Numbered from the stretch's first letter, positions 18,010 through 53,266 are shown. The stretch is DNA of 64,000 nt from Bacteroidota bacterium (GCA_003389385.1 QQVM01000017.1:10443-74442), one strand, 5' to 3'. Program-made: numbers and translations. The notes: a model not told the origin generated them from the letters alone.

Positions 18010-18492
18010 ATGATTATCACACAGCAACGGTTTAAGTGGACGGATACATCCACGCTATCGCAATGGTTCATTGACGGGGAAGCAAATTTCTATTCGAACA
18101 AATACGACAAGATGCTTCCGGTGTACGCGCTGGAAGACAAAGACCGCGACTTGCACTCCTACATGACAGATGCAGAGGTGCGAAAAGTAAAAGTCCATGG
18201 CGAAACTGCAATCCCGTACGGAAAATTCAGAGTGATCATGTCATTTTCTGCAAGGTTTAAAAAGATCATGCCAGAGGTGATCGGAGTCCCTGGATTTTCA
18301 GGAATTAGAATTCACAATGGATCGTTAGTCACTCATACAGAAGGGTGCCCTCTGATTGGGTACAAACATCATTATATGCCTGACAAAGATCAGTTCTGGG
18401 TGTCGCAGTCAAGGGACTGCTTTGCTGAAATCATGTCGATGCTGAACATCGCAAATGAAAAAGAAAAAATGTTTTTAGAGATCATCAAATGA
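18010..18492 (+). CDS. Endolysin candidate with an H-x7-TEGC motif (uncharacterised His/Cys domain)
   Basis: 160-aa soluble protein directly upstream of the spanin-like pair. It contains IRIHNGSLVTHTEGCPLIG, and the same motif occurs in the RHS-tip domain at 41682-42281. Confidence 0.4.
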   Translation: MIITQQRFKWTDTSTLSQWFIDGEANFYSNKYDKMLPVYALEDKDRDLHSYMTDAEVRKVKVHGETAIPYGKFRVIMSFSARFKKIMPEVIGVPGFSGIRIHNGSLVTHTEGCPLIGYKHHYMPDKDQFWVSQSRDCFAEIMSMLNIANEKEKMFLEIIK

Positions 18493-20744: not shown

Positions 20745-21848
20745 TTATGTCCGAAACTTTTTAAATTCTGCATCCATCAGCGGATTGGTGACCTTGGCAT
20801 AGATGGCTACGGTGCGCCGAGATATGCCCATGTATTCGGCCACGACATCCGAGGTAATGCCAGATTCCAGGCAGCGCACAGCAAAGGTATGCCTGCCCAC
20901 GTGTGATGTGATGGGCATATCAATCTCCGGATTACACATTTTTGCAATCGCTTTCAAATTTTCGTTTACGGTTGGCTCCGCAGGACAGGGCCTCATATGA
21001 AGTAGCTTTTCTGTGAGCTGTTTCAATTTATCATGCATCTGAAGGGATACCAGTTGGCCGTTCTTTTTTGCGCGAAGAATCAAGCGATCTTCCCGTATAA
21101 ATTCGGAAGAAAACCTGAGCCAGTCTGAGATGCGAAGCCCGCTGTAGCATCCCAAAAGGAAGTACATGCCGGAGACTAGCATTGTTTCGCTCATGGGAAG
21201 CTTCAGTGCGCGCTCCCATGCCTGTACCTGCGAAAGCGTAAGATGTATCCGATCCGGATTTTGGTATTTGGGCATAGGATACTTTTTGAATGGGTCTTCG
21301 CTTGTCAACCTATTATGCATGGCATCCAGATATACGGTGCGCATTTTTTTCCAAAGCTTATGAATTGTGTTTCCCTCAAGCGGCACCCGGGCAAGGTGCT
21401 GATGAAACAGCGCAAGCCAGCGCGGTGTAATGCCGTGCAGAGTAATGGATTTATCAAACTCCTGAATTCTGGCCAATGCCTGACGGTACGTGTCCAGGGT
21501 GCTGCCCTCCAGCACATCTCTCTTTCCGTCGATATATCCGGAAAAGTACTCGCAGAAACTCCGGTTCACGCCCTGGATGAAATCCGGCGTCACCGGTACG
21601 TCCATCAGCTGCATTCGCCGAATTTCCTGCTCGATTTCGGAAATCCTTTTTTTGATCTTCAAATTGATCATCTGATGCTGCGGATGACTCTTTCGAACTT
21701 CGCTGCCAGTCCAATCATCCGGTGAAATGAATTCATTCAATGACTTGACAATTCGCTTTCCGGATATCCTGATAATGATTTTCAAGGCCCGCTTGCCCTC
21801 TTTGTTCTTGCCGCCCATCAGCCGCGGATGTATCGTAACTTTCTGCAT
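20745..21848 (-). CDS. int: Tyrosine-type site-specific integrase
   Basis: C-terminal catalytic residues HVGRHTFAV and IYAKV (R-H-R-Y family). The start is trimmed to the ATG at 21848, because the longer ORF runs into the tRNA (the translated tRNA gives GFESRPDR). Confidence 0.8.
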   Translation of the reverse strand: MQKVTIHPRLMGGKNKEGKRALKIIIRISGKRIVKSLNEFISPDDWTGSEVRKSHPQHQMINLKIKKRISEIEQEIRRMQLMDVPVTPDFIQGVNRSFCEYFSGYIDGKRDVLEGSTLDTYRQALARIQEFDKSITLHGITPRWLALFHQHLARVPLEGNTIHKLWKKMRTVYLDAMHNRLTSEDPFKKYPMPKYQNPDRIHLTLSQVQAWERALKLPMSETMLVSGMYFLLGCYSGLRISDWLRFSSEFIREDRLILRAKKNGQLVSLQMHDKLKQLTEKLLHMRPCPAEPTVNENLKAIAKMCNPEIDMPITSHVGRHTFAVRCLESGITSDVVAEYMGISRRTVAIYAKVTNPLMDAEFKKFRT

Positions 21849-21990
21849 CGCCCTGTAGTGTGGCCACGCTGTAGCTACAGGGTGTAGCCAAATTCGTAGC
21901 CGTAAAGTGTCGGAAATGTAAATATTTGCCGGATAATAAACGCTATAAAATAGAAAATCCCGCGAAAAAGCGGGATTTGAACTAATTAAG

Positions 21991-22064
21991 CGGTCCGGAC
22001 GGGACTCGAACCCGCGACCCCATGCGTGACAGGCATGTATTCTAACCAACTGAACTACCGAACC
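21991..22064 (-). tRNA. tRNA-Asp (GTC)
   Basis: Cloverleaf folded by hand: acceptor GGTTCGG/CCGGACC, anticodon stem CATGC/GCATG with loop CTGTCAC, T-arm GCGGG-TTCGAGT-CCCGT; 74 nt with no encoded CCA. Confidence 0.75.
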
Positions 22065-22272
22065 GTATTTATTTAATTAATGAACGAACTGAGATTGTTT
22101 AGGTAATCCATTTCCTCGCGACCACTCCCGCACAAGCGGGATATTCTAACCAACTGAACTACCGAACCGTATTTATTTAATTAATGAACGAACTGAGATT
22201 GTTTAGGTAATCCATTTCCTCGCGACCACTCCCGCCCAAGCGGGATATTCTAACCAACTGAACTACCGAACC
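22065..22272 (-). repeat. Two tandem 104-bp repeats, each carrying a degenerate copy of the tRNA-Asp 5' half
   Basis: Each unit repeats the first ~30 nt of the tRNA (GGTTCGGTAGTTCAGTTGGTTAGAATA), then diverges with no T-arm or acceptor 3' strand. The two units differ by one SNP (cccgcAcaag versus cccgcCcaag). Confidence 0.6.
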
Positions 22273-40738: not shown

Positions 40739-40808
40739 ATTGCATAAATTTTTACAAAATGCTTGTGAATTTGAAAAAAAAGTTACCTTTGCGCTCCCTT
40801 GAACAAAT

Positions 40809-40880
40809 GGCCCGTTCGTCTAGGGGTTAGGACACGTCCCTTTCACGGATGAAACGCGGGTTCGATTCCCGCACGGGCTA
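40809..40880 (+). tRNA. tRNA-Glu (TTC)
   Basis: Folded by hand: acceptor GGCCCGT/ACGGGCT, anticodon stem CGTCC/GGATG with loop CTTTCAC, T-arm GCGGG-TTCGATT-CCCGC. Confidence 0.7.
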
Positions 40881-40942
40881 CTTACACAGAGTTAGTGCAT
40901 AGAACGAGTGAACAGGTTTGTCTGTTCACTCGTTTTGTTTTT
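40875..40942 (+). repeat. Left copy of the 68-bp perfect direct repeat (tRNA-Glu 3' end plus terminator)
   Basis: Identical 68 bp (cgggctacttacacagag...cactcgttttgtttt) recur at 43935-44002. Confidence 0.7.
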
Positions 40943-40947
40943 TTACC
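40903..40947 (+). terminator. Rho-independent terminator downstream of tRNA-Glu
   Basis: 12-bp perfect stem acgagtgaacag / ctgttcactcgt, loop gtttgt, followed by ttgttttttt. Confidence 0.6.
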
Positions 40948-41204
40948 AGCTCAAGGAGTGTTAATCTTTGGATTATAAAGTGCAATTCAAAATGCAGGAT
41001 GCAAAAGGTCGATTTATCTTCTATACTATCCCAGATAGATCAGAAAGTATTGATCGTAATTTAAGAAGTTAATTGTAATTATTAAGTTGTCCAGCTTGGG
41101 GAAAGTTAATCTTTCTAGTGTAGGATCTCGCTTTTTTTTGTCTGCATCATTTGCTCAGGTTCGAATACAATTGTATAAATTCCGTTGGTGAAATTCTTTG
41201 GTGA

Positions 41205-42281
41205 AACAGTAAGATTGCTAAAGTCAGGATTGTCTGTAGTCCATATTATCCCGAAGCTAGCGGTGCTTTGCAAGCCGAGCATCCAAATGTAATTGGAGAG
41301 CTTGCAATTACAGAATTAAAAATACGTAAAAAGGGTTATCTTTATGTCTATGTAAACAACAGCAGCGTGAAGCCTGTCTTTTTTGATAACCTCATCATCT
41401 CACATACGAGCAGTAAATTGCTGGAAGAAAATAATTATTATCCTTTTGGGATGTTGTGGAAAGCGCCAATTGGTGATAATAAGTATAAATACAGCGGAAA
41501 GGAAATTCAAACGGAGTTGGATTTATTTACTCAGGATTATGGAGCGAGATATTATGACCCTGCTATTGGAAGGTTTGGGACTGTTGACCCCTTAGCACAC
41601 AAAATGCCAGCTTGGTCGCCTTACTCATTTTGCAACAATAACCCAATCCGCTACATTGATCCTGATGGCCGAGCCCCTTAAGAATATGACGTTGATAAAA
41701 ATACCGGACAGATTAAAGTCGTTAGCGATAAAGGCGGGAACCAAACCGATTACTTCAATATAGGTACAACCAATGAACAAGGAAACTTTGTAACCGATCA
41801 AACAATTTCCACTGAGAGGGGAACAGGTAGTATTAACTCGTTCAGGTTTACAGAGACAAGTCAGTCTACTATCAGCACTTTTGTGATACCACAGGAGGGG
41901 AAAGACGTTACAGGATTTTTCTTAGAGCCAGCAGGCCCAAGCACTACTGTTGCTAATCAAGATCAACGAATACCGGAAGGAACTTATAATATTGAAAATT
42001 ATTCAAGCCAAAAGTATCCGAGTAATTTTAGGATATTTAACAGTGATGTTTCTAATGAGAGGAAAATTTTATTGCATATAGAAAATTTCCCTTCCAATAC
42101 TGAAGGATGTTTACTTTGTGGCGAAACTTTCGGAAAGGATTTTGTTGGAGGACCTCGCATTAATGGGGAAGGCGGAAGTTTTAGAAAGTTCAAAGAGATA
42201 AAAGGCTTCCTTAGCCAAAAGGGGCCAGAAAATGTTAAGTTCAATATCTTCAATGTTATACCTGATAAAGAAAAAAAGTAG
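41205..42281 (+). pseudogene. Orphan RHS-repeat C-terminal core plus toxin domain, with an in-frame TAA at 41679-41681 and no ATG start
   Basis: YD/RHS core end motifs are present (GARYYDPAIGRFGTVDP...IRYIDPDGRAP). The same frame stays open from 41205 to 42281 apart from the single TAA placed right after DPDGRAP. The downstream 200-aa domain contains HIENFPSNTEGCLLCG. Confidence 0.55.
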
Positions 42282-42285
42282 CCCC

Positions 42286-42930
42286 ATGAAATTAATTTCT
42301 ACTTTATTGCTGTTTTGTATGGGATTTACTTCTTGTCACTCTCAAAGCCAAGACATGCAGAATTGCGCAGCTATTAAAGAGCAGGCAAGCGCATTGAATA
42401 AATATGCTCAACAAGCGATTAGTGGCAACGTGGAAAAAAAGACGGAAGCTCTAACACACTTTTTTAAATCATTCCCCAATAATTTTAAAACATTCTATAG
42501 AATTTATGGTAATGACGATAAATCTGCAGATACGTGTTTACTTAAGGTTAGCAATGATTATATGTTATTCACGCTCCTGCCCGAATTAAAAAAAGCTATT
42601 CCCACCAATGAATACTATAAAAAAATGATACAGGTTGGAATCGGTGGGCATTGGGAAGCAGATGAAGTAGCAGCATTGCAGCATCATTTACAAGAGATAG
42701 TACCTGAAAACATAAAGCTTAGCGTTGATCTTCTAAAAGAGTACGAGGAAAAGCAAATAAAATCCTTCTGGCGTTTTTTTTATGATGGCCCTCATCCAGA
42801 CGACCCTGAGATTAAAAAACTATATGGCAGTTTGTATCCTAAAATCTCTCAAATTAATCCGAAGGTATCGGATTCAATGAAACAGGCCTACGATCAATTG
42901 TTAGCGGAAGATGATGGACACGGCCATTAA
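42286..42930 (+). CDS. Lipoprotein, candidate immunity protein
   Basis: Lipoprotein signal MKLISTLLLFCMGFTSC; immediately downstream of the toxin domain, overlapping its end. Confidence 0.4.
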   Translation: MKLISTLLLFCMGFTSCHSQSQDMQNCAAIKEQASALNKYAQQAISGNVEKKTEALTHFFKSFPNNFKTFYRIYGNDDKSADTCLLKVSNDYMLFTLLPELKKAIPTNEYYKKMIQVGIGGHWEADEVAALQHHLQEIVPENIKLSVDLLKEYEEKQIKSFWRFFYDGPHPDDPEIKKLYGSLYPKISQINPKVSDSMKQAYDQLLAEDDGHGH

Positions 42931-42992
42931 AAAAAAATTTTTTAAGCGTTACAAGCCACGATCCAGGGTCTGAAGCAGGCGGTACTGACCAG

Positions 42993-43229
42993 TTGTACAA
43001 AAAATTGATAAAAAATTATACTGTTAGAGAGCTAATCCATAGCCATCCGGATATAAGTACTGGCATTTACGGACCTTCTGGTTTTCTTCCACAAGACGAA
43101 AATGATGGTGATAGACGACTTGCAGAATGGAAAAATACTTATTTTCCAAAAAGCGGAGTAAAATTAAAAGTTTATGCGGTGCCAATAAAGAAATACATTG
43201 AGTACAACCACAATGGAATAGTAAAATAA
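42993..43229 (+). CDS. Possible second orphan toxin-tip fragment (HSHPD-containing)
   Basis: 78-aa ORF with a TTG start and an open frame upstream (..SHDPGSEAGGTDQ..); no confirmed domain. Confidence 0.2.
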   Translation: MYKKLIKNYTVRELIHSHPDISTGIYGPSGFLPQDENDGDRRLAEWKNTYFPKSGVKLKVYAVPIKKYIEYNHNGIVK

Positions 43230-43230
43230 T

Positions 43231-43755
43231 ATGATGTTCAATCGATTAATAATCTGTTTAATTGTCTTCCTGTGGAATTTTTCAGGTTGTAAGGCAAATC
43301 AGGAAAATGAGCTTAATATGCTAACGGTAAAGGATGCACAAATAAATGATGCGCTTAAAGTGCTTGTAAAAGAGGAGTCCGAATACAGAAACCTTGGAAA
43401 AAGTGCCATTATCTTTAAAATTGAAAAGTCAGAAATTGGTTATGAAATACGAATTGGGACATTGTTCAAAGAAAGTCTAAGCTTGTATTTAAGAGAGAAA
43501 AAAGATAAACCGTTTGGATTCTTTAAGTTTGAGAATGTTACGGTTATAGTATTTGGAGAAGAAGATAGGTTGCTCTTTGAAAAGACCAACAATACAAAAA
43601 ATCTTACTTTTCTTGAACCAAAGTCAGAATTGAAAGTTAAAGAAGGGGAAATTCCACCACCTCCCGTAATTTATGAGCCTGTGGTTTGGATTTACACTTA
43701 TGAAAATGGAAAACTCAAACCAACTGAGAAAGGCAGATTTGCACTACTGAAATGA
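43231..43755 (+). CDS. Lipoprotein, second candidate immunity protein
   Basis: Signal with lipobox (LWNFSGC); starts 2 nt after the preceding fragment. Confidence 0.35.
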   Translation: MMFNRLIICLIVFLWNFSGCKANQENELNMLTVKDAQINDALKVLVKEESEYRNLGKSAIIFKIEKSEIGYEIRIGTLFKESLSLYLREKKDKPFGFFKFENVTVIVFGEEDRLLFEKTNNTKNLTFLEPKSELKVKEGEIPPPPVIYEPVVWIYTYENGKLKPTEKGRFALLK

Positions 43756-43934
43756 AATAGAAATCCGGCAAATCAGGTTTTTTAAAATGCCTAAAAATTA
43801 GCATTGCTGTTCAGGAGGTCTTTCTGTAAGCTTCCCTGATAATCAGACAATGATATAGTGTTTAATTCTATATTCTGAATTTTTCTTCAAATTCAACAAT
43901 CTTCAATAAATCTTCGATGAAATAGTTAGATATT

Positions 43935-44002
43935 CGGGGTGTTCGGGCTACTTACACAGAGTTAGTGCATAGAACGAGTGAACAGGTTTGTCTGTTCACT
44001 CG
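43935..44002 (+). repeat. Right copy of the 68-bp perfect direct repeat
   Basis: Same 68 bp as 40875-40942, including a second copy of the terminator hairpin. Confidence 0.7.
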
Positions 44003-44550
44003 TTTTGTTTTCGGCATTGTCATTTTAGCTTATAGCCTATGCGGATGTTTTATCCAAGTGCTTGATCATGATATCTTGTCTTTTCGAAATTACTTCTCAG
44101 TGCGCAATTCAATCAATTTCAAAAATGCAATCAATCCAGAAAGCAAGTTCAGGCATCATCTCATTAAAACTATGTCCTGGTAAATTTCAATTCAGAAAAT
44201 TTACAATATTATCGCCCATATTCTAATCTAAATCACCGAAAAAAGTATTCAAGCTTTTAAGAGAGAATATAAATTTAAAGTATGCATTTATGTTGGCCCA
44301 GTTGAGTATTGGATGAATGTAGCGGCTCAATTTAGTTTCATTTCTATGTGTACATTATTCCACAATTGTGGATAATGATTCCGGTTTTACAGTCAAATAT
44401 TTGCGATTTTTTAATTTAAAAGTTGAAAAATTGAGGTTTTATGGATTTGTTTCCAATTCATTTTTTATGGTATGGTCTTTTCTCTCATGTTGCGAAATGG
44501 TTAAAATATTTCTAAAGCCATATTGATTAAAAAAATGTCTAATCTAAAAA

Positions 44551-45420
44551 ATGAATCTTATGAAAAAGTATCTGATTTTATTTATACCCCTTGCCATGCT
44601 TACTGCTTGCCAGGATTATAAAGCGGAAATTGAAAAACTGAAAAGCGAAAAAGAAATGTTAGTGGAATCTGCTTCCTACCGTGATTCCACCATTAACTCA
44701 TTTCTACAGTCATTTAATGAGATTGAAGCAAACCTGGAAGAAATTAGTCAAAGACAAGCTGATATATCCGACCAATCTGGTCCTGGAGAATTGAAGAAAT
44801 CCCAGGTGGATCGAATTCGTGAGAATATTGCTGCCATCAACACCTTGATGAAAGACAATAAAGATAAGCTCGCACAATTAAGTAAGCAACTTAAATCATC
44901 GAATTTTAAATTGAAAGAGTTGGAGAAAATGTTGGCTTCTTACAATGAGCAATTGGAAGAAAAGAATCAACAACTCGCCTTGGTGAATGAGGAGTTATCT
45001 AAGATGAAGGTGCAAGTTGAAAGTTTGAATACACAGTTAGTTGTACTCAATGATGATAATCTCCTGAAGCAATCTACGATTGAAACGCAGGTGAAAGAAC
45101 TCAATAAAGCCTTTGTTGTAACAGGTACAAGTAAACAACTTGAGGAGCAACAGGTAATTGTGAGGACCGGCGGATTTCTTGGCATTGGCAAAGAGGAGAA
45201 ATTGAATAGTGATATTAATCGTGGTGCATTTAATGCGATTGATATTACTCAAACTAATGTTATTCCTCTTGAAGCGAAGGATGTGGAGTTGCTGACTTAT
45301 CATCCGGAAGACAGCTATGATATAAAATACAATGGGAAAGAAGCTGACGAATTGGTCATCACTGATCCGAAAAAGTTCTGGGAAGGTTCCCGTTATCTCG
45401 TGGTCATGATTGACAAGTAA
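44551..45420 (+). CDS. Coiled-coil lipoprotein (hypothetical)
   Basis: Lipobox PLAMLTAC; long heptad-like Glu/Lys/Leu-rich region. Confidence 0.4.
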   Translation: MNLMKKYLILFIPLAMLTACQDYKAEIEKLKSEKEMLVESASYRDSTINSFLQSFNEIEANLEEISQRQADISDQSGPGELKKSQVDRIRENIAAINTLMKDNKDKLAQLSKQLKSSNFKLKELEKMLASYNEQLEEKNQQLALVNEELSKMKVQVESLNTQLVVLNDDNLLKQSTIETQVKELNKAFVVTGTSKQLEEQQVIVRTGGFLGIGKEEKLNSDINRGAFNAIDITQTNVIPLEAKDVELLTYHPEDSYDIKYNGKEADELVITDPKKFWEGSRYLVVMIDK

Positions 45421-45540
45421 TTAATTATTGTGATTTGCATCATCAGCTCGTTGTGATATAAGGAACATGAAAATCCCGGGTTGATGATGCAAATTATTGA
45501 CAGCTTCAATATCAATTCAAAATTATAAACTGACGAAGTC

Positions 45541-46218
45541 ATGAAATATTCAAAATCTTATATGGGACAACTGTTCAGTATTTTACTGGTTATACTCTTA
45601 GTCTTTCATTCTGCATATTCATTTGCACAACTAAACGGAAGTACCATAGGTATCAAGGCCGGTATGAATGTTATGTCAATAAAGATTAAAGAATTCGATG
45701 AGAAGGAGAACAGGATTGGATACCACTTTGGCGGTTTTTCAAGATTACAACTCACAGAGTCATTTTCTATTCAGCCTGAATTATTATTTTCTAACGCAGC
45801 AACCACGGTGACTTATACAGGCACTATAGGAGGAAATCAGACTTCCGACCGTCTTGCAGTTCGCCTCAATTATGCAGACATACCTGTTATGGCGGCAATA
45901 AATATTACATCAAAGCTTAGCCTCCAGGGAGGATTATATGGTTCATATCTGATTAGTACAAATTCAGATAAGTCATCAACAAACAATACTTCCCAATCCG
46001 AATCAAAACCAGTTAATACATCACAATTTAACCGCGTGGATGCAGGATGGTTGGGAGGAGCTTCATTGGACTTTGGTTCTATGAATTTTGGAGTAAGATA
46101 TCTTAAAAGTTTTAACTCAGTGGGAGACTCAGGTAGTGATTCGATAGGCTTTTTATATAACTTTCCTGATGGACAGCGAGAGGCATGGCAGGTTTATGTA
46201 GGCCTGAAATTCTTCTGA
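45541..46218 (+). CDS. Small outer-membrane beta-barrel protein (porin-family-like)
   Basis: Signal peptide, alternating hydrophobic pattern, ends in an aromatic residue (LKFF). Confidence 0.45.
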   Translation: MKYSKSYMGQLFSILLVILLVFHSAYSFAQLNGSTIGIKAGMNVMSIKIKEFDEKENRIGYHFGGFSRLQLTESFSIQPELLFSNAATTVTYTGTIGGNQTSDRLAVRLNYADIPVMAAINITSKLSLQGGLYGSYLISTNSDKSSTNNTSQSESKPVNTSQFNRVDAGWLGGASLDFGSMNFGVRYLKSFNSVGDSGSDSIGFLYNFPDGQREAWQVYVGLKFF

Positions 46219-46296
46219 TTCCCCTCCAGAAGCCATGTGTCAGCCTCTGACTTTCATTTAAGATGAATGCCTGAATACACCGCAGAAGCAGAAGCA

Positions 46297-48303
46297 TTAC
46301 GCTTCTGTTTCTTTTTTTTGAAGATGTGTTTCAAGGAGTATAATAAATCGGGTCCCATTTTTGCTGCTCTCTGCCTTTATTTCACCTTTGTGAGCTGTTA
46401 TGATATTTTGAACTGCAGCAAGTCCAAGCCCTATTCCTCCTCTCTTACCAGTATTGAAGGGTTCAAATAAATGCTTGAGAATCCCTGGATCAATGCCTGA
46501 GCCATTGTCAGAAATAACAATTTTAATTTTACCATTTTGTTCTGAGCAATTAATTATGATTTTTCCGGTATTTTCTTCCACTGCTTCTATTGCATTCATG
46601 ATGAGATTTAAGATAGCTGTTTGCAATTTTTCCTTGTCAGCAGTAATATGGATTTCTTTTTCAGAATACTCCTGTTCTATGTTCACATTTTTCAACCTGG
46701 CTCTGTCTGAGGCCAGATTAATAGCTTCATTGATTAGATCTTCCAGATTTATTTCTGAAAGTTGAAGCTCTGAAGGTTTTGATGATAGCAGGAGTTCTGA
46801 TACAAGCAGATTAATTCTTGATGAGGCCCTCTCGATGATTTCAATCAGTTTTCTTCCATCATTATCTTCGATTTGAATGCTATCCCGTAATTGATTTACG
46901 GAAAGATTGATGTTGGTCAAGGGGTTCCTTATTTCGTGAGCTATCATTCTTGCAATCCTACCTGTTACGGCCATTTTTTCTGCGATCAATAATTCCTGGC
47001 TGGCTTTTTTTCGATCACTTATATCGCTGATGGTTAATGCCACACCATTTTCCAGCGGCACACAAACAATCATGAACCAAAGTGAGAAATCTTCAGAATA
47101 TAATTCGCGCAGTTGATGTTCTCCGCTTTCAGTGGCCTGCTTTAACAAGGGCAGAAGTTCTTCATACAATTTATGTGGTATGATGTTGGAAAATAATTCA
47201 CCAGAATAATTTTTATAGTTTAACTTTAAATTCCTCAGTGAGGCCGGATTCATTGCTTTAATCAGAAATCCTGGACTCAGATTCTGATCCATATGAATTT
47301 TTTCAAGAGCAAAAATGGCGTCAGGGGAGCTGTTCATCACTCCCTGTAAGGTGAGTTCAGTTTCTTTTCTCTCTCGAAATTCTTTTAGGAGTAATTCATT
47401 GGTGAATATCTCATTTCGGTGACTTTCAACGTAGTTAAAACAAAGTCCTGTAAAAGGTATAAAAAACGAAAATGCCATCATCAGATGTGATATGTTGAAG
47501 CTGTTGTCGTACAGTTCAGTGCTTCCAAACATCATGTACAGTTGAGATACAAGAGCTGGAATCATACTGAGATAGATTGATTTTGAAAAAATAGATGGAA
47601 ACCTTTTATGAAATTTCGGAATAATAAGCACTGTCAGAAAAATATACATACATAAGGGAATCAAATCCTCTCTTCGCGCAATATTTCGAAAAGGATGAGC
47701 AAGATTGGCAGTAGAAGATCTTTCTGTAATTATTAATAGACTCATAATGGTTAAAATCAAAAAGAGAATTGTTGAATAGCTTATAATTCTGTGATCTCTT
47801 ATTTTTTCCTGAATAATCTGCCCCGAAAATTTCAATAAAAAGATTCCCATTCCAATACTGATGATGCCAGCATGAAATACACGACTTGTTAACCACGTGT
47901 ATGATGTGAAGTAATATTGCTGTCCAGGAAGATTGATCACGTGAGTCGAAAAAAGCAGATGTGCCGCGAGCAATAATCCGGAACAAAATAAAGCGATAGA
48001 CATAACAGGAGTGCTTACAGATCGTGTTATGCTATAATCAATAAATCCCAGCAATGCCGTTAAGCAGGCTATGGTAATTGTGGTTGAAACAAAGATCAGG
48101 TGGATGTATTTTCCGATAAAGATTTGCCTTATGTCTTCATTTTGCTCAATCTGTAGAATCCACTTAATGGTAAAAGAGTCGAGGCGGTAATCAACAAACC
48201 CGAAATAAAATCCGGCAATATTAATAAGTAGTGGTAAGAGACATATTAAGATGATAATCCAAAAAAATTTATCGGCTTGAAATAACTTTCTTTTAGAATC
48301 CAT
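46297..48303 (-). CDS. Sensor histidine kinase with a multi-TM N-terminal sensor, PAS-like linker, HisKA and HATPase_c
   Basis: About 8 predicted TM helices; H-box RMIAHEIRNPL; N-, G1- and G2-boxes in the C-terminal part (DNGSGI..GGIGLGL). Confidence 0.7.
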   Translation of the reverse strand: MDSKRKLFQADKFFWIIILICLLPLLINIAGFYFGFVDYRLDSFTIKWILQIEQNEDIRQIFIGKYIHLIFVSTTITIACLTALLGFIDYSITRSVSTPVMSIALFCSGLLLAAHLLFSTHVINLPGQQYYFTSYTWLTSRVFHAGIISIGMGIFLLKFSGQIIQEKIRDHRIISYSTILFLILTIMSLLIITERSSTANLAHPFRNIARREDLIPLCMYIFLTVLIIPKFHKRFPSIFSKSIYLSMIPALVSQLYMMFGSTELYDNSFNISHLMMAFSFFIPFTGLCFNYVESHRNEIFTNELLLKEFRERKETELTLQGVMNSSPDAIFALEKIHMDQNLSPGFLIKAMNPASLRNLKLNYKNYSGELFSNIIPHKLYEELLPLLKQATESGEHQLRELYSEDFSLWFMIVCVPLENGVALTISDISDRKKASQELLIAEKMAVTGRIARMIAHEIRNPLTNINLSVNQLRDSIQIEDNDGRKLIEIIERASSRINLLVSELLLSSKPSELQLSEINLEDLINEAINLASDRARLKNVNIEQEYSEKEIHITADKEKLQTAILNLIMNAIEAVEENTGKIIINCSEQNGKIKIVISDNGSGIDPGILKHLFEPFNTGKRGGIGLGLAAVQNIITAHKGEIKAESSKNGTRFIILLETHLQKKETEA

Positions 48304-48326
48304 AAAAAGAAGTTCAATTTAATAAT

Positions 48327-49745
48327 CTAATTAAATCCTTCAATTTGTTCGTCCTGGATATCGAATTGATTTAATTTATTGTATAAAGTTTTTCGATCTA
48401 TGTTTAAAATCCTTGCTGCTTCAGACTTATTGTTTTTGGTCATTTTCAGAGTTTTTATAATCAGTTCATATTCTGCTTCCTGCGCAGCATCTTTTAAGTA
48501 TAAATTTTTTACTGATTTACTATTCACACTGAAATTGCTAAAGTTGAACTTTTCAGCATTAGAAATTTCATTCGGTAATGTTTTAGACAATAAAATATTG
48601 CCGTCAGTAAGAAGTACGCTTCGCTTGATTACATTTTTAAGTTCTCGAATATTTCCCGGCCAGGCATATTTTTTCAGACATTCGATATAATCTGCGTCAA
48701 TTTCCTTAATCTCTTTTTTTAGTTCTATATTTGCTTCATTCAGGAAATGTCTGGTAAAAATCATGATGTCATCACCTCTTTCTCTGAGAGGAGGGAGATA
48801 GAAGCTGAATTCATTAAACCGGTGGAATAAGTCTTCTCGAAATTTTCCCTGATGATATGCAGTGGTAAGATCTTCATTTGAAGCGACAAGAATTCTCACG
48901 TCGACGGGAATTTCAATATTTGAACCAAGCTTCCGAATTTTTCTTTCCTGCACAGCCCTCAGGAGTGAAACCTGAACTTCATATGATAAGTTTGCGACCT
49001 CGTCCAGGAAGAGTGTTCCGCCATTTGCCAATTCTATAAGCCCGGTTTTAGCTTGCAGAGCTCCAGTAAAGGCGCCTTTTTCATGGCCGTATAATTCACT
49101 TCCAGCCAGTTCACGTGAAATAGCTCCACAATCCAGGGCAACAAATGGTTTTGTGTTTCTATCGCTTAGATTATGAATTCGGTTTGCAACAGCTTCTTTT
49201 CCGGAACCGCTTTCTCCATAAATAATGACACTCATATTTGTAGGAGCAACCAGTTTGATTTGCTTTTCAATTTCCTGAGCCTGTTTACAGAAACCTATGA
49301 TATAATTATCCTGCTGCTTTGAAGTGCTCTTTTCACTCGGCATTTTTATATCGGCATCCGTTTCTTTATGAAGAGCTTTGCCTATAATGTGTAAAATTTC
49401 ATCCGGTATTAAAGGTTTGGAAATGTAATCAAATGCACCTGTCTTTATTACCTTCACGGCTGTACGTATATCAGAATAGCCTGTGATTATTATCACCGGG
49501 ATTTCAGAATTTATATTTCTAATCTCTTGCAGCATATCAAGGCCATCATAGTCTCCAAGTCTAAAATCACAGAGGATAAGGTCCGGCTTTGTGTTGCCGA
49601 GTATTTTTATTGCAGCCTTACCTGAAAGGGCAGTGAAAATCTCGAATCCACTTCGCTGGAGGAATGATTCCAACAGTGTGCAAATGTCCGGATCATCATC
49701 GATAATCAGAATTTTTCCAGACTTAGCTTTATTTTTAGTATTCAT
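48327..49745 (-). CDS. Sigma-54-dependent response regulator (NtrC family)
   Basis: Receiver domain (DDDPD..D), AAA+ GESGSGKE Walker A, GAFTGA sigma-54 contact motif, C-terminal HTH. Confidence 0.8.
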   Translation of the reverse strand: MNTKNKAKSGKILIIDDDPDICTLLESFLQRSGFEIFTALSGKAAIKILGNTKPDLILCDFRLGDYDGLDMLQEIRNINSEIPVIIITGYSDIRTAVKVIKTGAFDYISKPLIPDEILHIIGKALHKETDADIKMPSEKSTSKQQDNYIIGFCKQAQEIEKQIKLVAPTNMSVIIYGESGSGKEAVANRIHNLSDRNTKPFVALDCGAISRELAGSELYGHEKGAFTGALQAKTGLIELANGGTLFLDEVANLSYEVQVSLLRAVQERKIRKLGSNIEIPVDVRILVASNEDLTTAYHQGKFREDLFHRFNEFSFYLPPLRERGDDIMIFTRHFLNEANIELKKEIKEIDADYIECLKKYAWPGNIRELKNVIKRSVLLTDGNILLSKTLPNEISNAEKFNFSNFSVNSKSVKNLYLKDAAQEAEYELIIKTLKMTKNNKSEAARILNIDRKTLYNKLNQFDIQDEQIEGFN

Positions 49746-49749
49746 GTTA

Positions 49750-50133
49750 TTAAATTGATTTATCTTTTAATGATGAAATCAATTGGTTTAAATGTAACAG
49801 ATCTATAGGCTTACTTATGAATCCCGAGGCGCCGGAATTTATAGCAATTCTTTCTTCAATGGAAGTGGCGTGTGCGCTCATGACTATAAAATCACTTGAA
49901 GGTGAAATGCTTTTAAACTCTTCAAGTTTCTGAAGCCCGGAGCCATCCGGTAAATTAATATCAAGCAATATTATATCGGAAGAATTCGCATATAGCATTT
50001 TCTGTCCCTCTTTCAGATTGTACGCTGTAGCAGTTATAAATCCCATTTTTTCAAGAAAGCCCGACAGTAACCAGCAAATGTCAGGTTCGTCATCTAATAT
50101 TAATACACTCTTTTTTTTAATTATACCCTCCAT
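49750..50133 (-). CDS. Single-domain response regulator receiver
   Basis: 127-aa CheY-like protein (LILDDEPD...DINLPDGSG...K). Confidence 0.65.
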   Translation of the reverse strand: MEGIIKKKSVLILDDEPDICWLLSGFLEKMGFITATAYNLKEGQKMLYANSSDIILLDINLPDGSGLQKLEEFKSISPSSDFIVMSAHATSIEERIAINSGASGFISKPIDLLHLNQLISSLKDKSI

Positions 50134-50273
50134 AAGTATATCTATAAATTTAAGATTATTTTGTTAATTCAATGAGTTATCATGTATAAAAAAATACTCC
50201 TGGTCCAAACCACCGGGAGTATTCAGTAAAACAAGAAAGGAATGGATTAATAGAAATTGAGAGAGTTTCATTT

Positions 50274-50795
50274 TCAGAATACAAATCTGAAGTTAAGCGC
50301 GCCATCAAAATATCCATTTAATCCATGATGGACATCAATAAATGGTTTAATGTCCAAGCCTAAGGTAAATGGAGCATTATTGAATTTATATTCAAGACCC
50401 AATATAAAGTCTACGCCCGGAATTATAACAGTGTGTCCTGGTTCTACGACATAAACATTTCTTCCGCGGTCTCTGAAGTACCAGTATGTTCCCTTGTGTT
50501 GAAACATTCCAAGGTGAGCACCAGCACCATAATACCATTTCATTCCGGGTGTGCTACTGATAGTCCTGTTGATTTCGTATAATCCGGTAATAAATGAGCT
50601 ACGATATCCGAATCCCAGAATTCCTTCCAGAGCAGTTGCACTACCAGTATTGTGTCTGATGCTTAATCCTGAATGCAAGCCACCGAGACGTAAGCCGATA
50701 CCGGTCCGGTAGTCTTGTGATAAGGAAGTTTTTACTGAGAAAATGGATGTCAGGAGAATCCATGTTGCTATTAAAACACTTTGATGAGTTTTCAT
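50274..50795 (-). CDS. Small outer-membrane beta-barrel protein
   Basis: Signal peptide; Gly/aromatic-rich beta strands; ends NFRFVF. Confidence 0.4.
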   Translation of the reverse strand: MKTHQSVLIATWILLTSIFSVKTSLSQDYRTGIGLRLGGLHSGLSIRHNTGSATALEGILGFGYRSSFITGLYEINRTISSTPGMKWYYGAGAHLGMFQHKGTYWYFRDRGRNVYVVEPGHTVIIPGVDFILGLEYKFNNAPFTLGLDIKPFIDVHHGLNGYFDGALNFRFVF

Positions 50796-51186
50796 AGTTG
50801 TAAGAGTTTATTCTCGCAATGTTGCAAGAAGCATTCCCATGGTGTTTGAGCCTAAAAATGTGGAAAAAATTAGAATTATTATGGGTCTAGTGTAGCATTA
50901 TGGCTGCATTTGTGGAATTAATTCCCCAGTATGATTAGTAATCGAACTGTTTGAAATTTGGATATTGGATATGATGTTTAAAGGGTGGTGAGTGAAAGAT
51001 TGTCAGGCTTAAATTGTTATGTATGATAGTTTTTGTTAAGTAATTGAGTCTCGGCGATAGCTTGTCTATAAAGTGAAGAGTTTACGGTAATGATCTTGAA
51101 GAAAAACATCAGAGAAATGAACATTCAATATTGAAATACCAGATTCAGTATCTGATAAACTTTACATCTTAATTTTAAATTAATTT

Positions 51187-53112
51187 TCATTGTTTAATGA
51201 AATGTCGTATATAAATTTGCTGACCTTCCTGATCGTAGATTTGTAAAAAGTAGATGCCGCTAATTAAATCATCGATTCGAATATTTGAATCAGATAGTAT
51301 TGACTTTTGAATTAGTCTTCCTTGTATATCAATAATTTTATATCTTAAAGTCTTAGTATATAATTTTGAATAGTTGATATGTAAAGTCTGATTTGCGGGG
51401 ATTGGATATAACTGAAAGGGATTAGTTTCAATTGAATCTTCCAATGCAAGTGGAAGATTAGTTGAGGGTAAAGTAATTCGGCTGGGATTTGAAGAATTGT
51501 GATGAATGGTGATGATTGCAGTATTTGTATCTCCCGCTGTATACATGGTATCGCCGTTTTGCAGGTTCACATCCCAACGTGTTGAACTGTTTCCGCTGAT
51601 GTAGATTTTTATTTTGTGACCAGACTTCCAGGTATAATTTACAAATGGTAATTCGACCACTGCTTCATAGACTTGTCCGATCTGCATAAATGATTCAAGC
51701 GCCTGAGTATAACCGTTCCTGAATCTCATTCTGCGAATGCCGTCATTTATGAGCATGTCTCTTCCGTCCGGGTAAGCATCTGTCAAGCGCACAACTATGT
51801 CTGCATCCGGCTGGTCGCATTCTATAAATAAGTGCACTTTAATTCTTCCACTCACATTGATGTCCTGGCTGAGTGCAGAAGTTTCGAATGTCATCAAATC
51901 TGTTCTGCCAATCAGGCTGTTTTGGCTGTAAGGACCCTGATTCAATGACTGGCTGAGAGTGTGCCCACCAATAGTTGGTGAAGGATTTCTTGGTTCACTT
52001 ATAAATAGGCTGGAATTGATTCCATTTCCTGCGATCAATGTACCCTGATCATTCAGAAAGAGTTCTGTGCTCTGAGATATTTCAATTGTGCTGTCGTTGG
52101 AAAATCTCCAGGCATTTGTGCCAAGTTCATAATGGGTAATTTTTGGTGTGTTCAACCAGTTTCCGGAATTCAACAAATAGTATTCAAAAAAACTTCGAGA
52201 CATAGTATCGTTTTTCTGTGCTGCATCGGGATAGCTAAGTTCACCTTGTATTGAAGAACCAACATATGCCGGGCCGGTTCCCCCGTGAACCCATGGGCCA
52301 ACAAGCAGCCACTGGTGGTTGCGCACAGAAGTATCTGCTGAAGTCCTGCAGGCCTTGTACCAATCCATCATCCTATCAATGTTGTGATCGTACCATCCGC
52401 CGATTTGCAAAGTAGGTGTGCTGATATCCTGCGGATACCATGTGGAATTTTCTGTGATTTGCCAGACAAGGTTGTAATAGGGATTTGCCAGAACAAGGGG
52501 CGACAGTCCAAAGCCAAGCATATCCAGTGACTGAAGCCTTGAACTTTCCAATGCTCCTCCGTAAAAGTATCCCTGATAGTGTGTTTGAGGATGAGCAACA
52601 ATCGGAATTGCGCATAAATGCGAAGGATGCTTTTCTTTCATGGTTTGGTACTGGATCACTCCAAGTGCTGAAGGTCCCCAGGTACCCACTTTACCATTCG
52701 ACCAGCTTTGTGTACTTATCCAAGAAATTATATCATAGCCATCTTCACCACGCTTCGGTTGTGCTACAGCAGCCGAGACAGATCCGAAAAAACCTCTCCA
52801 GTCAGCTACAACCCATGCATAGGGACTTGATTGTAAATTGAGTCCGAATCCCATTGGCAATCCGGCACGGAATGAATTTTTATTGTAGGGAGTTTGAATA
52901 AGTATAGTAGGACAGGAGGTGCAGGCAGCAGGAATATACACATCAGCTGCAAGAAATTTTCCATCGCGCATTGGAATACTGACAATCTGAGTGGGATTTA
53001 ACTGTGCAAAAAGCAGGCAAGGAATTAAATATAGTGCAAGTGTCAGGTAAAAGATTATAGTATGACGATTAAATGTTTTGGATGTTCTCATAATGGTTTT
53101 AAGCATGGGCAA
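51187..53112 (-). CDS. CocE/NonD-family (S15 X-Pro dipeptidyl-peptidase-like) hydrolase with a T9SS C-terminal domain
   Basis: N-terminal VSIPMRDGKFLAADVYIP...ILIQTPYNK is the CocE/NonD start; C-terminal LYPIPANQTLHINY...IYFLQIY is a T9SS sorting domain. Confidence 0.6.
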   Translation of the reverse strand: MPMLKTIMRTSKTFNRHTIIFYLTLALYLIPCLLFAQLNPTQIVSIPMRDGKFLAADVYIPAACTSCPTILIQTPYNKNSFRAGLPMGFGLNLQSSPYAWVVADWRGFFGSVSAAVAQPKRGEDGYDIISWISTQSWSNGKVGTWGPSALGVIQYQTMKEKHPSHLCAIPIVAHPQTHYQGYFYGGALESSRLQSLDMLGFGLSPLVLANPYYNLVWQITENSTWYPQDISTPTLQIGGWYDHNIDRMMDWYKACRTSADTSVRNHQWLLVGPWVHGGTGPAYVGSSIQGELSYPDAAQKNDTMSRSFFEYYLLNSGNWLNTPKITHYELGTNAWRFSNDSTIEISQSTELFLNDQGTLIAGNGINSSLFISEPRNPSPTIGGHTLSQSLNQGPYSQNSLIGRTDLMTFETSALSQDINVSGRIKVHLFIECDQPDADIVVRLTDAYPDGRDMLINDGIRRMRFRNGYTQALESFMQIGQVYEAVVELPFVNYTWKSGHKIKIYISGNSSTRWDVNLQNGDTMYTAGDTNTAIITIHHNSSNPSRITLPSTNLPLALEDSIETNPFQLYPIPANQTLHINYSKLYTKTLRYKIIDIQGRLIQKSILSDSNIRIDDLISGIYFLQIYDQEGQQIYIRHFIKQ

Positions 53113-53266
53113 CTTTTACGAAGTTAATAATTTAAGATCTGATAAATTTCTTTATTCACCAGTACCAGATAGACAAATCTTTTGTAACTCAAGATTCCTA
53201 AAGAGATTTTGTAAGGATTTTCATTTGGCTGCGGCTATATAACAAATCCATAAAACTATATAGGTC

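What the first reader, a model, noticed from the sequence alone, without database searches (positions are those of the whole stretch)
40875..44002. About 3-kb island bounded by perfect 68-bp direct repeats at the 3' end of tRNA-Glu
The last 6 nt of tRNA-Glu and its terminator hairpin (40875-40942) are duplicated perfectly at 43935-44002. The two copies bracket the RHS-tip, immunity and orphan-fragment genes. This looks like an att-style target duplication, or a recombination scar that moved the original tRNA terminator 3 kb downstream. No integrase lies between the repeats. The mechanism could be a helper-dependent element, repeat-mediated cassette exchange, or an unrecognised small recombinase.
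Basis: seen in the sequence. Interest (0 to 1): 0.65.

Follow-up and report, generated by a model that had tools for sequence, protein, structure and literature searches.

The report
Integrase-less toxin-immunity islet behind tRNA-Glu
A 3-kb piece of foreign DNA carrying broken toxin genes and two intact antidote genes sits directly behind a tRNA gene, bracketed by a perfect 68-base duplication of the tRNA's end and terminator; this is the usual footprint of a small, decayed genomic island rather than a new kind of element.

Summary
The repeat is real. It holds the last 8 nt of tRNA-Glu plus the 60-nt trailer with the terminator hairpin. That trailer is native chromosomal sequence, because a relative has an orthologous one.

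The 3,002 nt between the copies are low in GC (0.36 against 0.42). They form a degenerate RHS orphan array:
- an RHS core tip fused to a DUF5675 toxin, interrupted by an in-frame TAA
- the toxin's conserved lipoprotein immunity partner
- a truncated Toxin-JAB1 fragment
- a second lipoprotein

No recombinase lies inside.

The geometry matches a tRNA-integrated island: intact tRNA, displaced 3' fragment downstream, same orientation. The left edge falls at the T-stem/acceptor junction and the right edge at the end of the terminator. My best reading (about 0.5) is a decayed or helper-dependent, CIME-like islet that now serves mainly as orphan immunity. A duplication-insertion that was not site-specific remains possible (about 0.3).

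The empty-site test cannot be done. The nearest relative in public data shares only 63% amino-acid identity in the flanking gene. Interest is low to moderate: a new member of known kinds.

The parts
40809..40881 (+). tRNA-Glu (anticodon UUC), intact. A Bacteroidota-type -7 promoter box, TACCTTTG, lies at 40784.
   Evidence: ARAGORN; Rfam RF00005, 60.1 bits; promoter motif scan. The same hyp232-tRNA-Glu synteny is found in 20 related loci.
40874..40941 (+). Left copy of the perfect 68-nt direct repeat (attL-like): the last 8 nt of tRNA-Glu plus the 60-nt trailer.
   Evidence: The trailer is orthologous to that of relative L092.
40899..40944 (+). Intrinsic terminator of tRNA-Glu: a 17-18-bp hairpin followed by a T-run.
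   Evidence: strand folding gives -29.9 kcal/mol, z = -6.26. Called by the terminator scan.
40942..41227 (+). Left non-coding end of the islet. No recognisable gene. Contains a 24-nt imperfect repeat (40946-40969 and 41091-41114, 79% identical), possibly debris of gene 3' ends.
   Evidence: no homologue found among the fetched loci. No RHS homology upstream of about 41228-41250 in any frame.
41228..41681 (+). Orphan RHS-repeat-associated core tip. It is the C-terminal end of an RHS shell, ending ...IDPDGRAP. It has no N-terminal body and no ATG.
   Evidence: TIGR03696, E = 6e-20. 77% identical to orphan tips P0014 and P0016 of the closest relative MAG. The DNA alignment shows where homology starts.
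41682..41684 (+). In-frame TAA separating the core tip from the toxin domain. This is a nonsense change, so the gene is a pseudogene.
   Evidence: Translation. Homologues P0001-P0035 read through this position as a single ORF, and single tblastn HSPs span it.
41685..42281 (+). DUF5675 toxin domain. Invariant residues are H131, T139, G141 and C142.
   Evidence: Pfam PF18925, E = 1.1e-16; phrog_1501; invariant columns in the 32-sequence alignment.
42286..42930 (+). imm1: an intact 214-aa predicted lipoprotein and the cognate immunity partner of the DUF5675 toxin.
   Evidence: 60% identical to the gene directly downstream of the homologous toxin in L087, and 35% to the one in L086. The N-terminus MKLISTLLLFCMGFTSC looks like a lipoprotein signal (inference).
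42930..43229 (+). 5'-truncated Toxin-JAB1 fragment. It is the remnant of a displaced toxin and has no RHS core.
   Evidence: Pfam PF15659, E = 6.2e-7, matching profile positions 35-74 of 87 only. Translation.
43231..43755 (+). imm2: an intact 174-aa predicted lipoprotein, the presumed immunity partner of the JAB toxin.
   Evidence: ORF. Its position directly after the toxin remnant is typical of a toxin-immunity pair (inference). No family match.
43756..43943 (+). Right non-coding end of the islet.
   Evidence: No ORF, no homologue and no similarity to the tRNA body.
43944..44011 (+). Right copy of the 68-nt repeat (attR-like): the displaced tRNA-Glu 3' fragment plus a second copy of the terminator hairpin.

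Best explanation
The segment is a small genomic islet of 3,002 nt plus one repeat copy, 3,070 nt in all. It was inserted at the 3' end of tRNA-Glu by recombination at an att-type site.

Proposed mechanism (inferred). A circular form carried a copy of the stretch from the T-stem/acceptor junction of tRNA-Glu to the end of its terminator. It recombined with the chromosomal tRNA-Glu. This regenerated an intact, properly terminated tRNA at the left junction and displaced the original 3' fragment and terminator 3 kb downstream. The recombinase was most likely a tyrosine integrase. It is no longer in the islet, either because it was deleted during decay or because it always acted in trans. The islet is therefore non-autonomous, like a cis-mobilizable element (CIME) or a decayed island.

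Cargo (shown). The cargo is a degenerate piece of an RHS orphan array. Both toxin genes are dead: one has no start codon and an in-frame TAA, and the other is 5'-truncated. Both downstream lipoprotein genes are intact.

Present function (inferred). The islet most likely serves as orphan immunity against DUF5675-type and JAB-type toxins delivered by neighbouring bacteria.
For: 1. The full tDNA-island signature is present: an intact tRNA, a displaced 3' fragment downstream in direct orientation, and a 3.07-kb interval. These are the criteria in the Islander paper.
2. Both edges of the identity block coincide with functional landmarks.
   - The left edge is 1 nt 3' of the T-stem/acceptor junction. 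This is the 'J' crossover subsite named in the Islander paper.
   - The right edge is the last T of the terminator U-tract.
   - Identity drops to random immediately outside both edges.
3. The 60-nt trailer is orthologous to the tRNA-Glu trailer of relative L092, so the repeat is duplicated target sequence.
4. The insert looks foreign and accessory.
   - Its GC is 0.361 against 0.424 on the left.
   - Its toxin-immunity DNA is at best 71% identical to anything fetched.
   - Relatives lack it. They place YceI 0.5-3 kb after tRNA-Glu, whereas YceI lies 12.4 kb away here.
5. Repeat identity of 68/68 fits a recent event, or an element confined to this lineage.
6. The cargo is confirmed.
7. Decay of an integrative element into an element that keeps attL and attR but has lost its integration genes is a described route. 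This is the CIME definition in PMC5704250.
8. From my own knowledge, not checked here: att identity blocks of 45-180 bp that run to the end of a tRNA transcription unit are known (HP1, SLP1, pSAM2).
Against: 1. No integrase or remnant lies in or next to the islet. The only tyrosine recombinase in the 64-kb window abuts tRNA-Asp and has no paralogue in the window.
2. None of 19 orthologous hyp232-tRNA-Glu loci in other Bacteroidota shows a displaced tRNA fragment or an integrase within about 10 kb downstream. There is thus no independent sign that any integrase uses this site.
3. Only 8 of the 68 repeated nucleotides are tRNA. The other 60 are fast-evolving trailer. An incoming element would need an exact copy of lineage-specific sequence.
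4. The left end of the islet looks like arbitrary cassette debris rather than an element terminus.
5. Related DUF5675 cassettes elsewhere are never tRNA-linked or repeat-bracketed.
6. No canonical Bacteroidota promoter was found for the immunity genes. Their expression, and hence the proposed immunity role, is unproven.
Confidence: 0.5

Rival explanations
1. Duplication-insertion that was not site-specific. A 3-kb piece of an RHS orphan array was copied or ligated in behind the tRNA-Glu terminator by one of several routes:
- replication template switching at the stable hairpin
- repair of a staggered or resected break
- Campbell-type homologous recombination of a circle that happened to carry the 68-nt stretch

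The 68-nt duplication is a by-product. No integrase was ever involved.
For: - No recombinase is present.
- The identity block is mostly lineage-specific trailer.
- The islet's left end looks like an arbitrary breakpoint in cassette debris.
- The trailer region is prone to local duplication in a relative: L092 carries 4.5 tandem 83-nt units that start in the 3' arm of the orthologous hairpin.
- No integrase-bearing island sits at this tRNA in 19 relatives.
Against: - Both edges of the duplication coincide with functional landmarks (T/acceptor junction, end of the U-tract). A random process would hit these only by luck.
- No microhomology is visible at the junctions.
- The tRNA is restored exactly.
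- To my knowledge, target duplications as long as 68 nt are not known for bacterial transposition.
Confidence: 0.3
2. The islet is still active and helper-dependent. The 3,070-bp unit excises and re-integrates through the two 68-nt sites using an integrase encoded elsewhere in the genome. It thereby spreads immunity genes.
For: - The repeats are perfect.
- Logan contig L095 (run SRR7515932) is exactly 3,100 nt, which equals 3,070 + k-1. Its 30-nt ends are identical. A closed 3,070-bp cycle would give exactly this at k=31.
- Trans- or cis-mobilisation of integrase-less elements is documented for CIMEs.
Against: - The same contig shape arises from a walk bounded by branch points if the tRNA-side edge was clipped at low coverage. 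Neighbouring Logan contigs are only about 3 kb long, which points to low coverage.
- No candidate integrase with this specificity is known.
- The islet or its repeat was not found anywhere else: JGI metagenomes, IMG/VR, plasmids, phages.
Confidence: 0.12
3. Assembly artefact. The chromosome has an empty site and the 3-kb segment belongs elsewhere, to another strain or replicon that shares the 68-mer. The assembler joined them wrongly.
For: The source is a metagenome-assembled genome. k=31 contigs cannot resolve a 68-nt repeat.
Against: - Two different long-k assemblies, with contigs of 357 kb and 413 kb, give the identical order at 100% identity over the 9 kb compared.
- A 68-nt repeat is shorter than typical reads and shorter than the largest k values. 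True junction reads are therefore needed to build this path.
- The segment has no replication gene, so it could not exist as a separate replicon.
Confidence: 0.05

Closest known systems
tRNA-integrated genomic islands (the 'tDNA plus displaced tDNA fragment' signature used by Islander; Hudson, Lau and Williams 2015, PMC4383910)
   Same: An intact tRNA gene with a 3' fragment of it displaced downstream in direct orientation. The interval is longer than 2 kb and carries foreign, low-GC cargo. The crossover-side edge lies at the T-stem/acceptor junction.
   Different: No integrase gene lies inside or overlaps the interval. Only 8 nt of the repeat are tRNA, and the other 60 nt are trailer and terminator.
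CIMEs, cis-mobilizable elements (defined in PMC5704250): decayed ICEs or IMEs that keep attL and attR but have lost integration and transfer genes
   Same: Bounded by two identical att-like repeats at the 3' end of a tRNA gene. No recombination or transfer genes. Small size.
   Different: CIMEs were defined in Streptococcus, from recognisable ICE or IME relatives that use the same site. Here no parent element and no integrase using this site is known. Whether the repeats act as recombination sites is unproven.
Orphan rhs (and cdiA) toxin-immunity modules downstream of full-length rhs genes. The literature (Poole 2011, Koskiniemi 2014) is recalled from my own knowledge. Orphan arrays were seen directly in L087, L098, L101 and L105.
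   Same: A fragment of the RHS-associated core is followed by a variable toxin domain and its cognate immunity gene. More degraded toxin remnants, each with an immunity gene, lie further downstream.
   Different: The array is not downstream of any rhs gene. It sits behind a tRNA, bracketed by a duplication of the tRNA's 3' end. The closest core tip in public data is 77% identical and comes from another organism. No partner rhs gene for tip swapping is in evidence.
AID and rAID-1 orphan immunity islands of gut Bacteroidales (Ross et al., bioRxiv 10.1101/471110)
   Same: Co-directional orphan immunity genes with low GC and toxin remnants, in a Bacteroidota genome. The presumed benefit is protection from the toxins of neighbouring bacteria.
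   Different: rAID-1 is defined by a 5' XerD-like recombinase and repetitive intergenic sequences, and neither is present here. AID-1 and AID-2 sit on larger mobile elements. The toxins here are RHS-borne rather than T6SS effectors of Bacteroidales.

Membership tests
tDNA-integrated genomic island (Islander criteria) | A full-length tRNA gene plus a fragment of the same tRNA elsewhere on the replicon | tested here: met
   tRNA-Glu at 40809-40881. Its last 8 nt plus the trailer are repeated at 43944-44011.
tDNA-integrated genomic island (Islander criteria) | The 3' fragment lies downstream of the tRNA gene, in the same orientation | tested here: met
   Both copies are on the + strand and the fragment lies 3,070 nt downstream.
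tDNA-integrated genomic island (Islander criteria) | Length of 2-200 kb | tested here: met
   3,070 nt.
tDNA-integrated genomic island (Islander criteria) | A tyrosine integrase gene inside or overlapping the interval | tested here: not met
   Pfam and NCBIfam scans of all five islet ORFs find no recombinase domain. The six-frame peptides of the non-coding ends have no relatives. tblastn with the window's integrase finds only itself.
CIME (cis-mobilizable element) | Lacks integration and transfer genes | tested here: met
CIME (cis-mobilizable element) | Retains functional attL and attR of a site-specific recombinase | tested here: inconclusive
   Perfect repeats with att-like position and edges are present. 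No integrase using them is known, and none is seen at 19 orthologous loci.
CIME (cis-mobilizable element) | Derived by decay from an ICE or IME, and mobilisable when a related element integrates next to it | not testable with these tools
   No parent element was found in plasmids, phages, viral contigs or metagenomes. Testing this needs experiments or conspecific genomes.
Orphan RHS toxin-immunity module | A fragment of the RHS-repeat-associated core without the N-terminal RHS body | tested here: met
   TIGR03696 at E = 6e-20 on 41205-41681. Homology to longer RHS proteins starts at about 41235-41250, with nothing upstream.
Orphan RHS toxin-immunity module | A variable C-terminal toxin domain followed by its cognate immunity gene | tested here: met
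   DUF5675 domain. imm1 is homologous to the gene following the homologous toxin in L086 and L087.
Orphan RHS toxin-immunity module | Located downstream of a full-length rhs gene with a matching core | tested here: not met
   No ORF in the window has RHS repeats, and the largest is 1,027 aa. The best core match in public data is 77% identical and lies in another MAG.
rAID-1 (recombinase-associated acquired interbacterial defence) | [quoted passage not shown] | tested here: not met
   The upstream neighbours are tRNA-Glu, a conserved 232-aa protein and ProS.
rAID-1 (recombinase-associated acquired interbacterial defence) | Two or more co-directional genes with GC of 41% or less | tested here: met
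   All islet genes are on the + strand and GC is 0.361.
rAID-1 (recombinase-associated acquired interbacterial defence) | Repetitive, integron-like intergenic sequences | tested here: not met
   No repeat family lies between the cassettes. The only candidates are the 68-nt end repeats and one weak 24-nt pair.
Integron cassette / attC array | Imperfect attC hairpins with conserved R''/R' core sites bounding each ORF | tested here: not met
   The repeat is a perfect-stem terminator hairpin that includes the tRNA 3' end. It bounds the whole array, not each cassette. The absence of core motifs was judged by eye.

The most novel reading that the evidence does not exclude
The 3,070-bp unit is a living, minimal, integrase-less mobile cassette. 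It excises as a circle through its two 68-nt tRNA-end/terminator sites, using an integrase encoded elsewhere. It shuttles orphan immunity genes between strains. If so, it would be a CIME-like vehicle for interbacterial-defence genes in environmental Bacteroidota. The hint is the 3,100-nt Logan contig with identical 30-nt ends.
Probability: 0.12. Interest if true: 0.55.

Novelty: new member of a known kind. Interest (0 to 1): 0.3.

Why it matters
If the reading is right, orphan toxin-immunity cassettes can leave their rhs locus and persist as tiny islets at tRNA genes. These islets lack an integrase and are transcriptionally insulated, and only the immunity genes stay intact.

This would extend acquired interbacterial defence, described so far mainly in gut Bacteroidales, to an environmental Bacteroidota lineage and to RHS-borne toxins.

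It also matters for annotation. Island finders that require an integrase will miss such islets.

It does not point to a new recombination mechanism. Nothing here needs more than known tRNA-site integration followed by decay.

Tried and rejected
1. Empty-site search.
   - Exact look-ups of both flanking proteins returned only the same strain at 100% identity.
   - The 232-aa flank gene has no relative above 63% identity in the 5.8-billion-cluster protein collection or above 61% in GTDB genomes.
   - The 46-nt repeat core is absent from the JGI metagenome contigs. A 41-nt core is absent from IMG/VR.
   - The test cannot be done with public data.
2. Other copies or parent elements.
   - blastn of the whole islet against PLSDB plasmids and INPHARED phages found no match.
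   - There are no further partial copies of the repeat in the window.
3. General rule for such cassettes. Three genomic and 36 metagenomic loci with related DUF5675 toxins have no tRNA nearby. They have no bracketing repeats apart from ordinary RHS-core repeats of orphan arrays.
4. Hot spot for integrases. Nineteen orthologous tRNA-Glu loci have no displaced fragment and no integrase.
5. A decayed tRNA copy upstream of the right repeat was rejected. The local alignment score is no better than 10% of shuffles.
6. Integrase relics in the non-coding ends: none found.
7. An integron attC or an IS200/IS605-type hairpin end was rejected. The hairpin is the native tRNA terminator, orthologous in L092, and the repeat includes tRNA sequence.
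8. The tRNA-Asp integrase as helper has no support. Its site differs, and only the T-arms of the two tRNAs are alike; that region lies outside the repeat.
9. PDB sequence search for the toxin: no hit.
10. Williams 2002 (PMC100330) could not be read. The subsite classes are cited from the Islander paper instead.
Full report
**1. Observation.**
The window contains one perfect 68-nt direct repeat, at 40874-40941 and 43944-44011, spaced 3,070 nt start to start.

The repeat is not chance. Its 46-nt core occurs exactly twice even with three mismatches allowed, and never in 100 shuffles. The expected number of chance 68-mer pairs is about 1e-31.

tRNA-Glu(UUC) lies at 40809-40881 by ARAGORN and 40809-40880 by Rfam. 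The repeat therefore starts with the last 7-8 nt of the tRNA, meaning six acceptor-stem nucleotides plus the discriminator. It continues through 60 nt of trailer. That trailer forms a 17-18-bp hairpin followed by UUUUGUUUU (-29.9 kcal/mol, z = -6.3). The terminator scan calls the left copy.

Outside the 68 nt, the two copies share nothing. The 65 nt to the left and the 60 nt to the right align no better than shuffled sequence.

Two different long-k assemblies of the same organism carry the identical arrangement. They are MAG GCA_003389315.1 contig QQVG01000006.1 (357 kb) and ENA ERZ869938 NODE_19 (413 kb). k=31 Logan contigs stop exactly 30 nt into the repeat, as a real repeat requires.

**2. 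Anatomy of the 3,002 nt between the copies.**
All genes are on the + strand.

| Coordinates | Feature | Evidence |
|---|---|---|
| 40942-41227 | Non-coding, no recognisable relative | |
| ~41228-41681 | C-terminal end of an RHS shell (TIGR03696, E = 6e-20), ending IDPDGRAP; no ATG, no RHS body | |
| 41682-41684 | In-frame TAA | |
| 41685-42281 | DUF5675 domain in the same frame (PF18925, E = 1e-16; phrog_1501) | |
| 42286-42930 | imm1, intact 214-aa lipoprotein-like protein | |
| 42930-43229 | C-terminal part only of a Toxin-JAB1 domain (PF15659, profile positions 35-74 of 87) | |
| 43231-43755 | imm2, second intact lipoprotein-like ORF, 174 aa | |
| 43756-43943 | Non-coding | |

In 30-odd homologues the tip and the toxin form one uninterrupted ORF, and single tblastn HSPs run across the TAA. 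The gene is therefore a pseudogene.

imm1 is 60% identical to the gene directly downstream of the homologous toxin in locus L087, and 35% to the one in L086. It is the toxin's conserved partner.

No recombinase domain is present in any of these ORFs. In short, this is a piece of an RHS orphan array in which the toxins are dead and the immunity genes are intact.

**3. Context and comparison.**
The left flank, LpxK ... ProS - a conserved 232-aa protein - tRNA-Glu, is syntenic in the nearest relatives and in many Bacteroidota.

The right side is variable. In relatives L089, L090, L092 and L006, YceI-DUF3817-cNMP sensor kinase-HD follows the tRNA after 0.5-3 kb. In the window YceI is at 53267, 12.4 kb away. 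The intervening DNA is low in GC: 0.36 for the islet and 0.37 for 44012-53266, against 0.42 on the left.

The 60-nt trailer inside the repeat aligns along its whole length with the tRNA-Glu trailer of L092, including the hairpin arms. The repeated sequence is therefore native chromosomal target sequence, not something imported.

No conspecific or congeneric genome exists in the public collections:
- The flanking protein has a 100% match only in this strain, and the next relative is 63% identical.
- GTDB representatives reach 61%.
- The repeat core is absent from the JGI metagenome contigs and from IMG/VR.

**4. How it most likely arose.**
The geometry is the classical signature of a tRNA-integrated island: a regenerated tRNA with its displaced 3' fragment downstream in direct orientation (Islander criteria).

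Both edges of the identity block fall on functional landmarks.
- The left edge is 1 nt 3' of the T-stem/acceptor junction. The Islander paper lists this as one of three crossover subsites of tRNA-targeting tyrosine integrases.
- The right edge is the last T of the terminator U-tract.

An element that carries exactly the stretch from the crossover to the end of the tRNA transcription unit would regenerate a complete, correctly terminated tRNA gene on integration. From my own knowledge, not verified here, long identity blocks of this logic are known for HP1, SLP1 and pSAM2.

The perfect 68/68 identity and the single nonsense change in the toxin are compatible with a recent event.

The integrase is missing. 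[quoted passage not shown] That is the closest mechanistic label.

I put this reading at about 0.5. What is shown directly:
- the duplication and its edges
- the native origin of the trailer
- the foreign, degenerate cargo
- the absence of a recombinase

What is inferred:
- the involvement of a tyrosine integrase
- the circular intermediate
- the later loss of the integrase, or its supply in trans

**5. Rivals.**
- **A duplication-insertion that was not site-specific** (template switching at the hairpin, break repair, or Campbell-type homologous recombination) is the serious alternative, at about 0.3.
  - For it: no integrase is present. No integrase or displaced fragment is seen at 19 orthologous tRNA-Glu loci. 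60 of the 68 nt are lineage-specific trailer. The islet's left end looks arbitrary. In L092 the same trailer has undergone local tandem duplication, with 4.5 units of 83 nt.
  - Against it: the coincidence of both edges with functional landmarks, and the lack of junction microhomology.
- **A still-active, helper-dependent cassette** is possible, at about 0.12.
  - Logan contig L095 is exactly 3,100 nt, which equals 3,070 + k-1, and its 30-nt ends are identical. A closed circle would give this.
  - A walk bounded by branch points would give the same shape if the tRNA-side edge was clipped at low coverage.
- **Misassembly** is unlikely, at about 0.05, because two independent long-k assemblies agree.

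**6. Function.**
The RHS tip has no start codon and carries a stop. The JAB toxin is truncated. Only the two lipoprotein genes are intact. The best core-tip match anywhere is 77% identical and lies in another organism, so there is no evident rhs gene with which the tip could recombine.

The most plausible present role is orphan immunity. This is analogous to the acquired interbacterial defence clusters of gut Bacteroidales.

That role is an inference. No canonical Bacteroidota -7 box was found inside the islet, and the upstream terminator should block read-through from the tRNA promoter.

**7. Comparison with known systems.**
The islet works like a tDNA-integrated island or CIME that carries an orphan RHS array.

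| Family | Result of membership test | Evidence |
|---|---|---|
| Islander-type island | Fails: no integrase criterion met | |
| Canonical orphan rhs module | Fails: not downstream of an rhs gene | |
| rAID-1 | Fails: no XerD-like recombinase, no intergenic repeats | |
| CIME | Inconclusive: att function of the repeats is unproven | |
| Integron attC or IS200/IS605-type end | Rejected: the hairpin is the native tRNA terminator | |

**8. Verdict.**

Nothing requires a new mechanism. The finding is a new member of known kinds, combining a decayed or non-autonomous tRNA islet with an orphan polymorphic-toxin array. One modest twist is that related cassettes elsewhere are not tRNA-linked. Interest is 0.3.

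The cheapest decisive test is read mapping of SRR7515930, SRR7515932 and SRR7515933 across the four possible junction combinations.

Noticed in passing
window 22065-22272 (- strand), upstream of tRNA-Asp at 21990-22064: Two extra tandem 104-nt units. Each starts with the first 27 nt of tRNA-Asp, followed by a different hairpin (TCCCGCTTGGGCGGGA and a one-base variant) and the same spacer that precedes the real tRNA. Neither ARAGORN nor Rfam calls them. They may be truncated or pseudo-tRNA copies. These are the longest other exact repeats in the window (40 nt or more).
   Followed up: partly
window 20745-22049 (-), and 1-20338 (+): A tyrosine integrase (Arm-DNA-bind_5, Phage_int_SAM_5 and Phage_integrase domains) lies directly downstream of tRNA-Asp. 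Beyond it lie about 20 kb of co-directional genes, mostly without family matches, including a DNA methylase (19109-20338). This is a probable prophage or island at tRNA-Asp. Its far end, and any displaced tRNA-Asp fragment, were not found within the window.
   Followed up: partly
window 18010-18492 (+) and 41685-42281 (+): The prophage-like region encodes a stand-alone DUF5675/phrog_1501 protein. This is the same domain family as the RHS-borne toxin, though the two are only distantly related (BLASTP E = 0.02). The alignment of 32 toxin homologues has invariant H, T-x-G-C and R/E residues. From memory, this resembles the catalytic motif of YkuD-type L,D-transpeptidases. Together with the lipoprotein immunity partner, it hints at a cell-wall target.
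   Followed up: partly
window 40882-53266: About 12.4 kb lie between tRNA-Glu and YceI: the islet, a Cbp1-family lipoprotein, an OMP beta-barrel, a sensor kinase with a sigma-54 regulator and a receiver protein, and an S15 peptidase with a T9SS tail. This block is absent from the same position in the nearest relatives and has low GC (0.36-0.37). The whole stretch may be accessory.
   Followed up: partly
L092 10881-11245: In a relative, the tRNA-Glu trailer carries a tandem array of 4.5 units of about 83 nt. The array starts in the 3' arm of the orthologous terminator hairpin.
   Followed up: partly
L095 (Logan SRR7515932_81657) = window 40912-44011: The contig is exactly 3,100 nt, which equals 3,070 + 30, and its first and last 30 nt are identical. 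The shape fits a closed 3,070-bp cycle (an excised circle). It also fits a linear walk bounded by graph branch points.
   Followed up: partly
window 40946-40969 and 41091-41114: A 24-nt imperfect direct repeat (19 of 24 identical) lies just inside the islet's left end. In frame, both copies read as similar short peptide tails that end in a stop codon (PAQGVLIFGL* and PAWGKLIFLV*). They may be debris of two paralogous gene 3' ends, or the match may be chance.
   Followed up: partly
L088 8560-9774 and 10001-10972 (closest relative MAG, GCA_964355885.1): Two stand-alone orphan RHS tips are 77% identical to the window's tip. They start with an ATG within about 25 nt of the point where the window's tip homology begins. 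They sit next to phospholipid-metabolism genes, not next to an rhs gene or a tRNA. Orphan tips with a shared 5' boundary appear to be scattered through these genomes.
   Followed up: partly
L129 (MWWI01000551.1, 7,459 nt): This metagenome contig carries a DUF5675 homologue and has identical 108-nt ends. It is probably a small circular replicon or phage genome.
   Followed up: no
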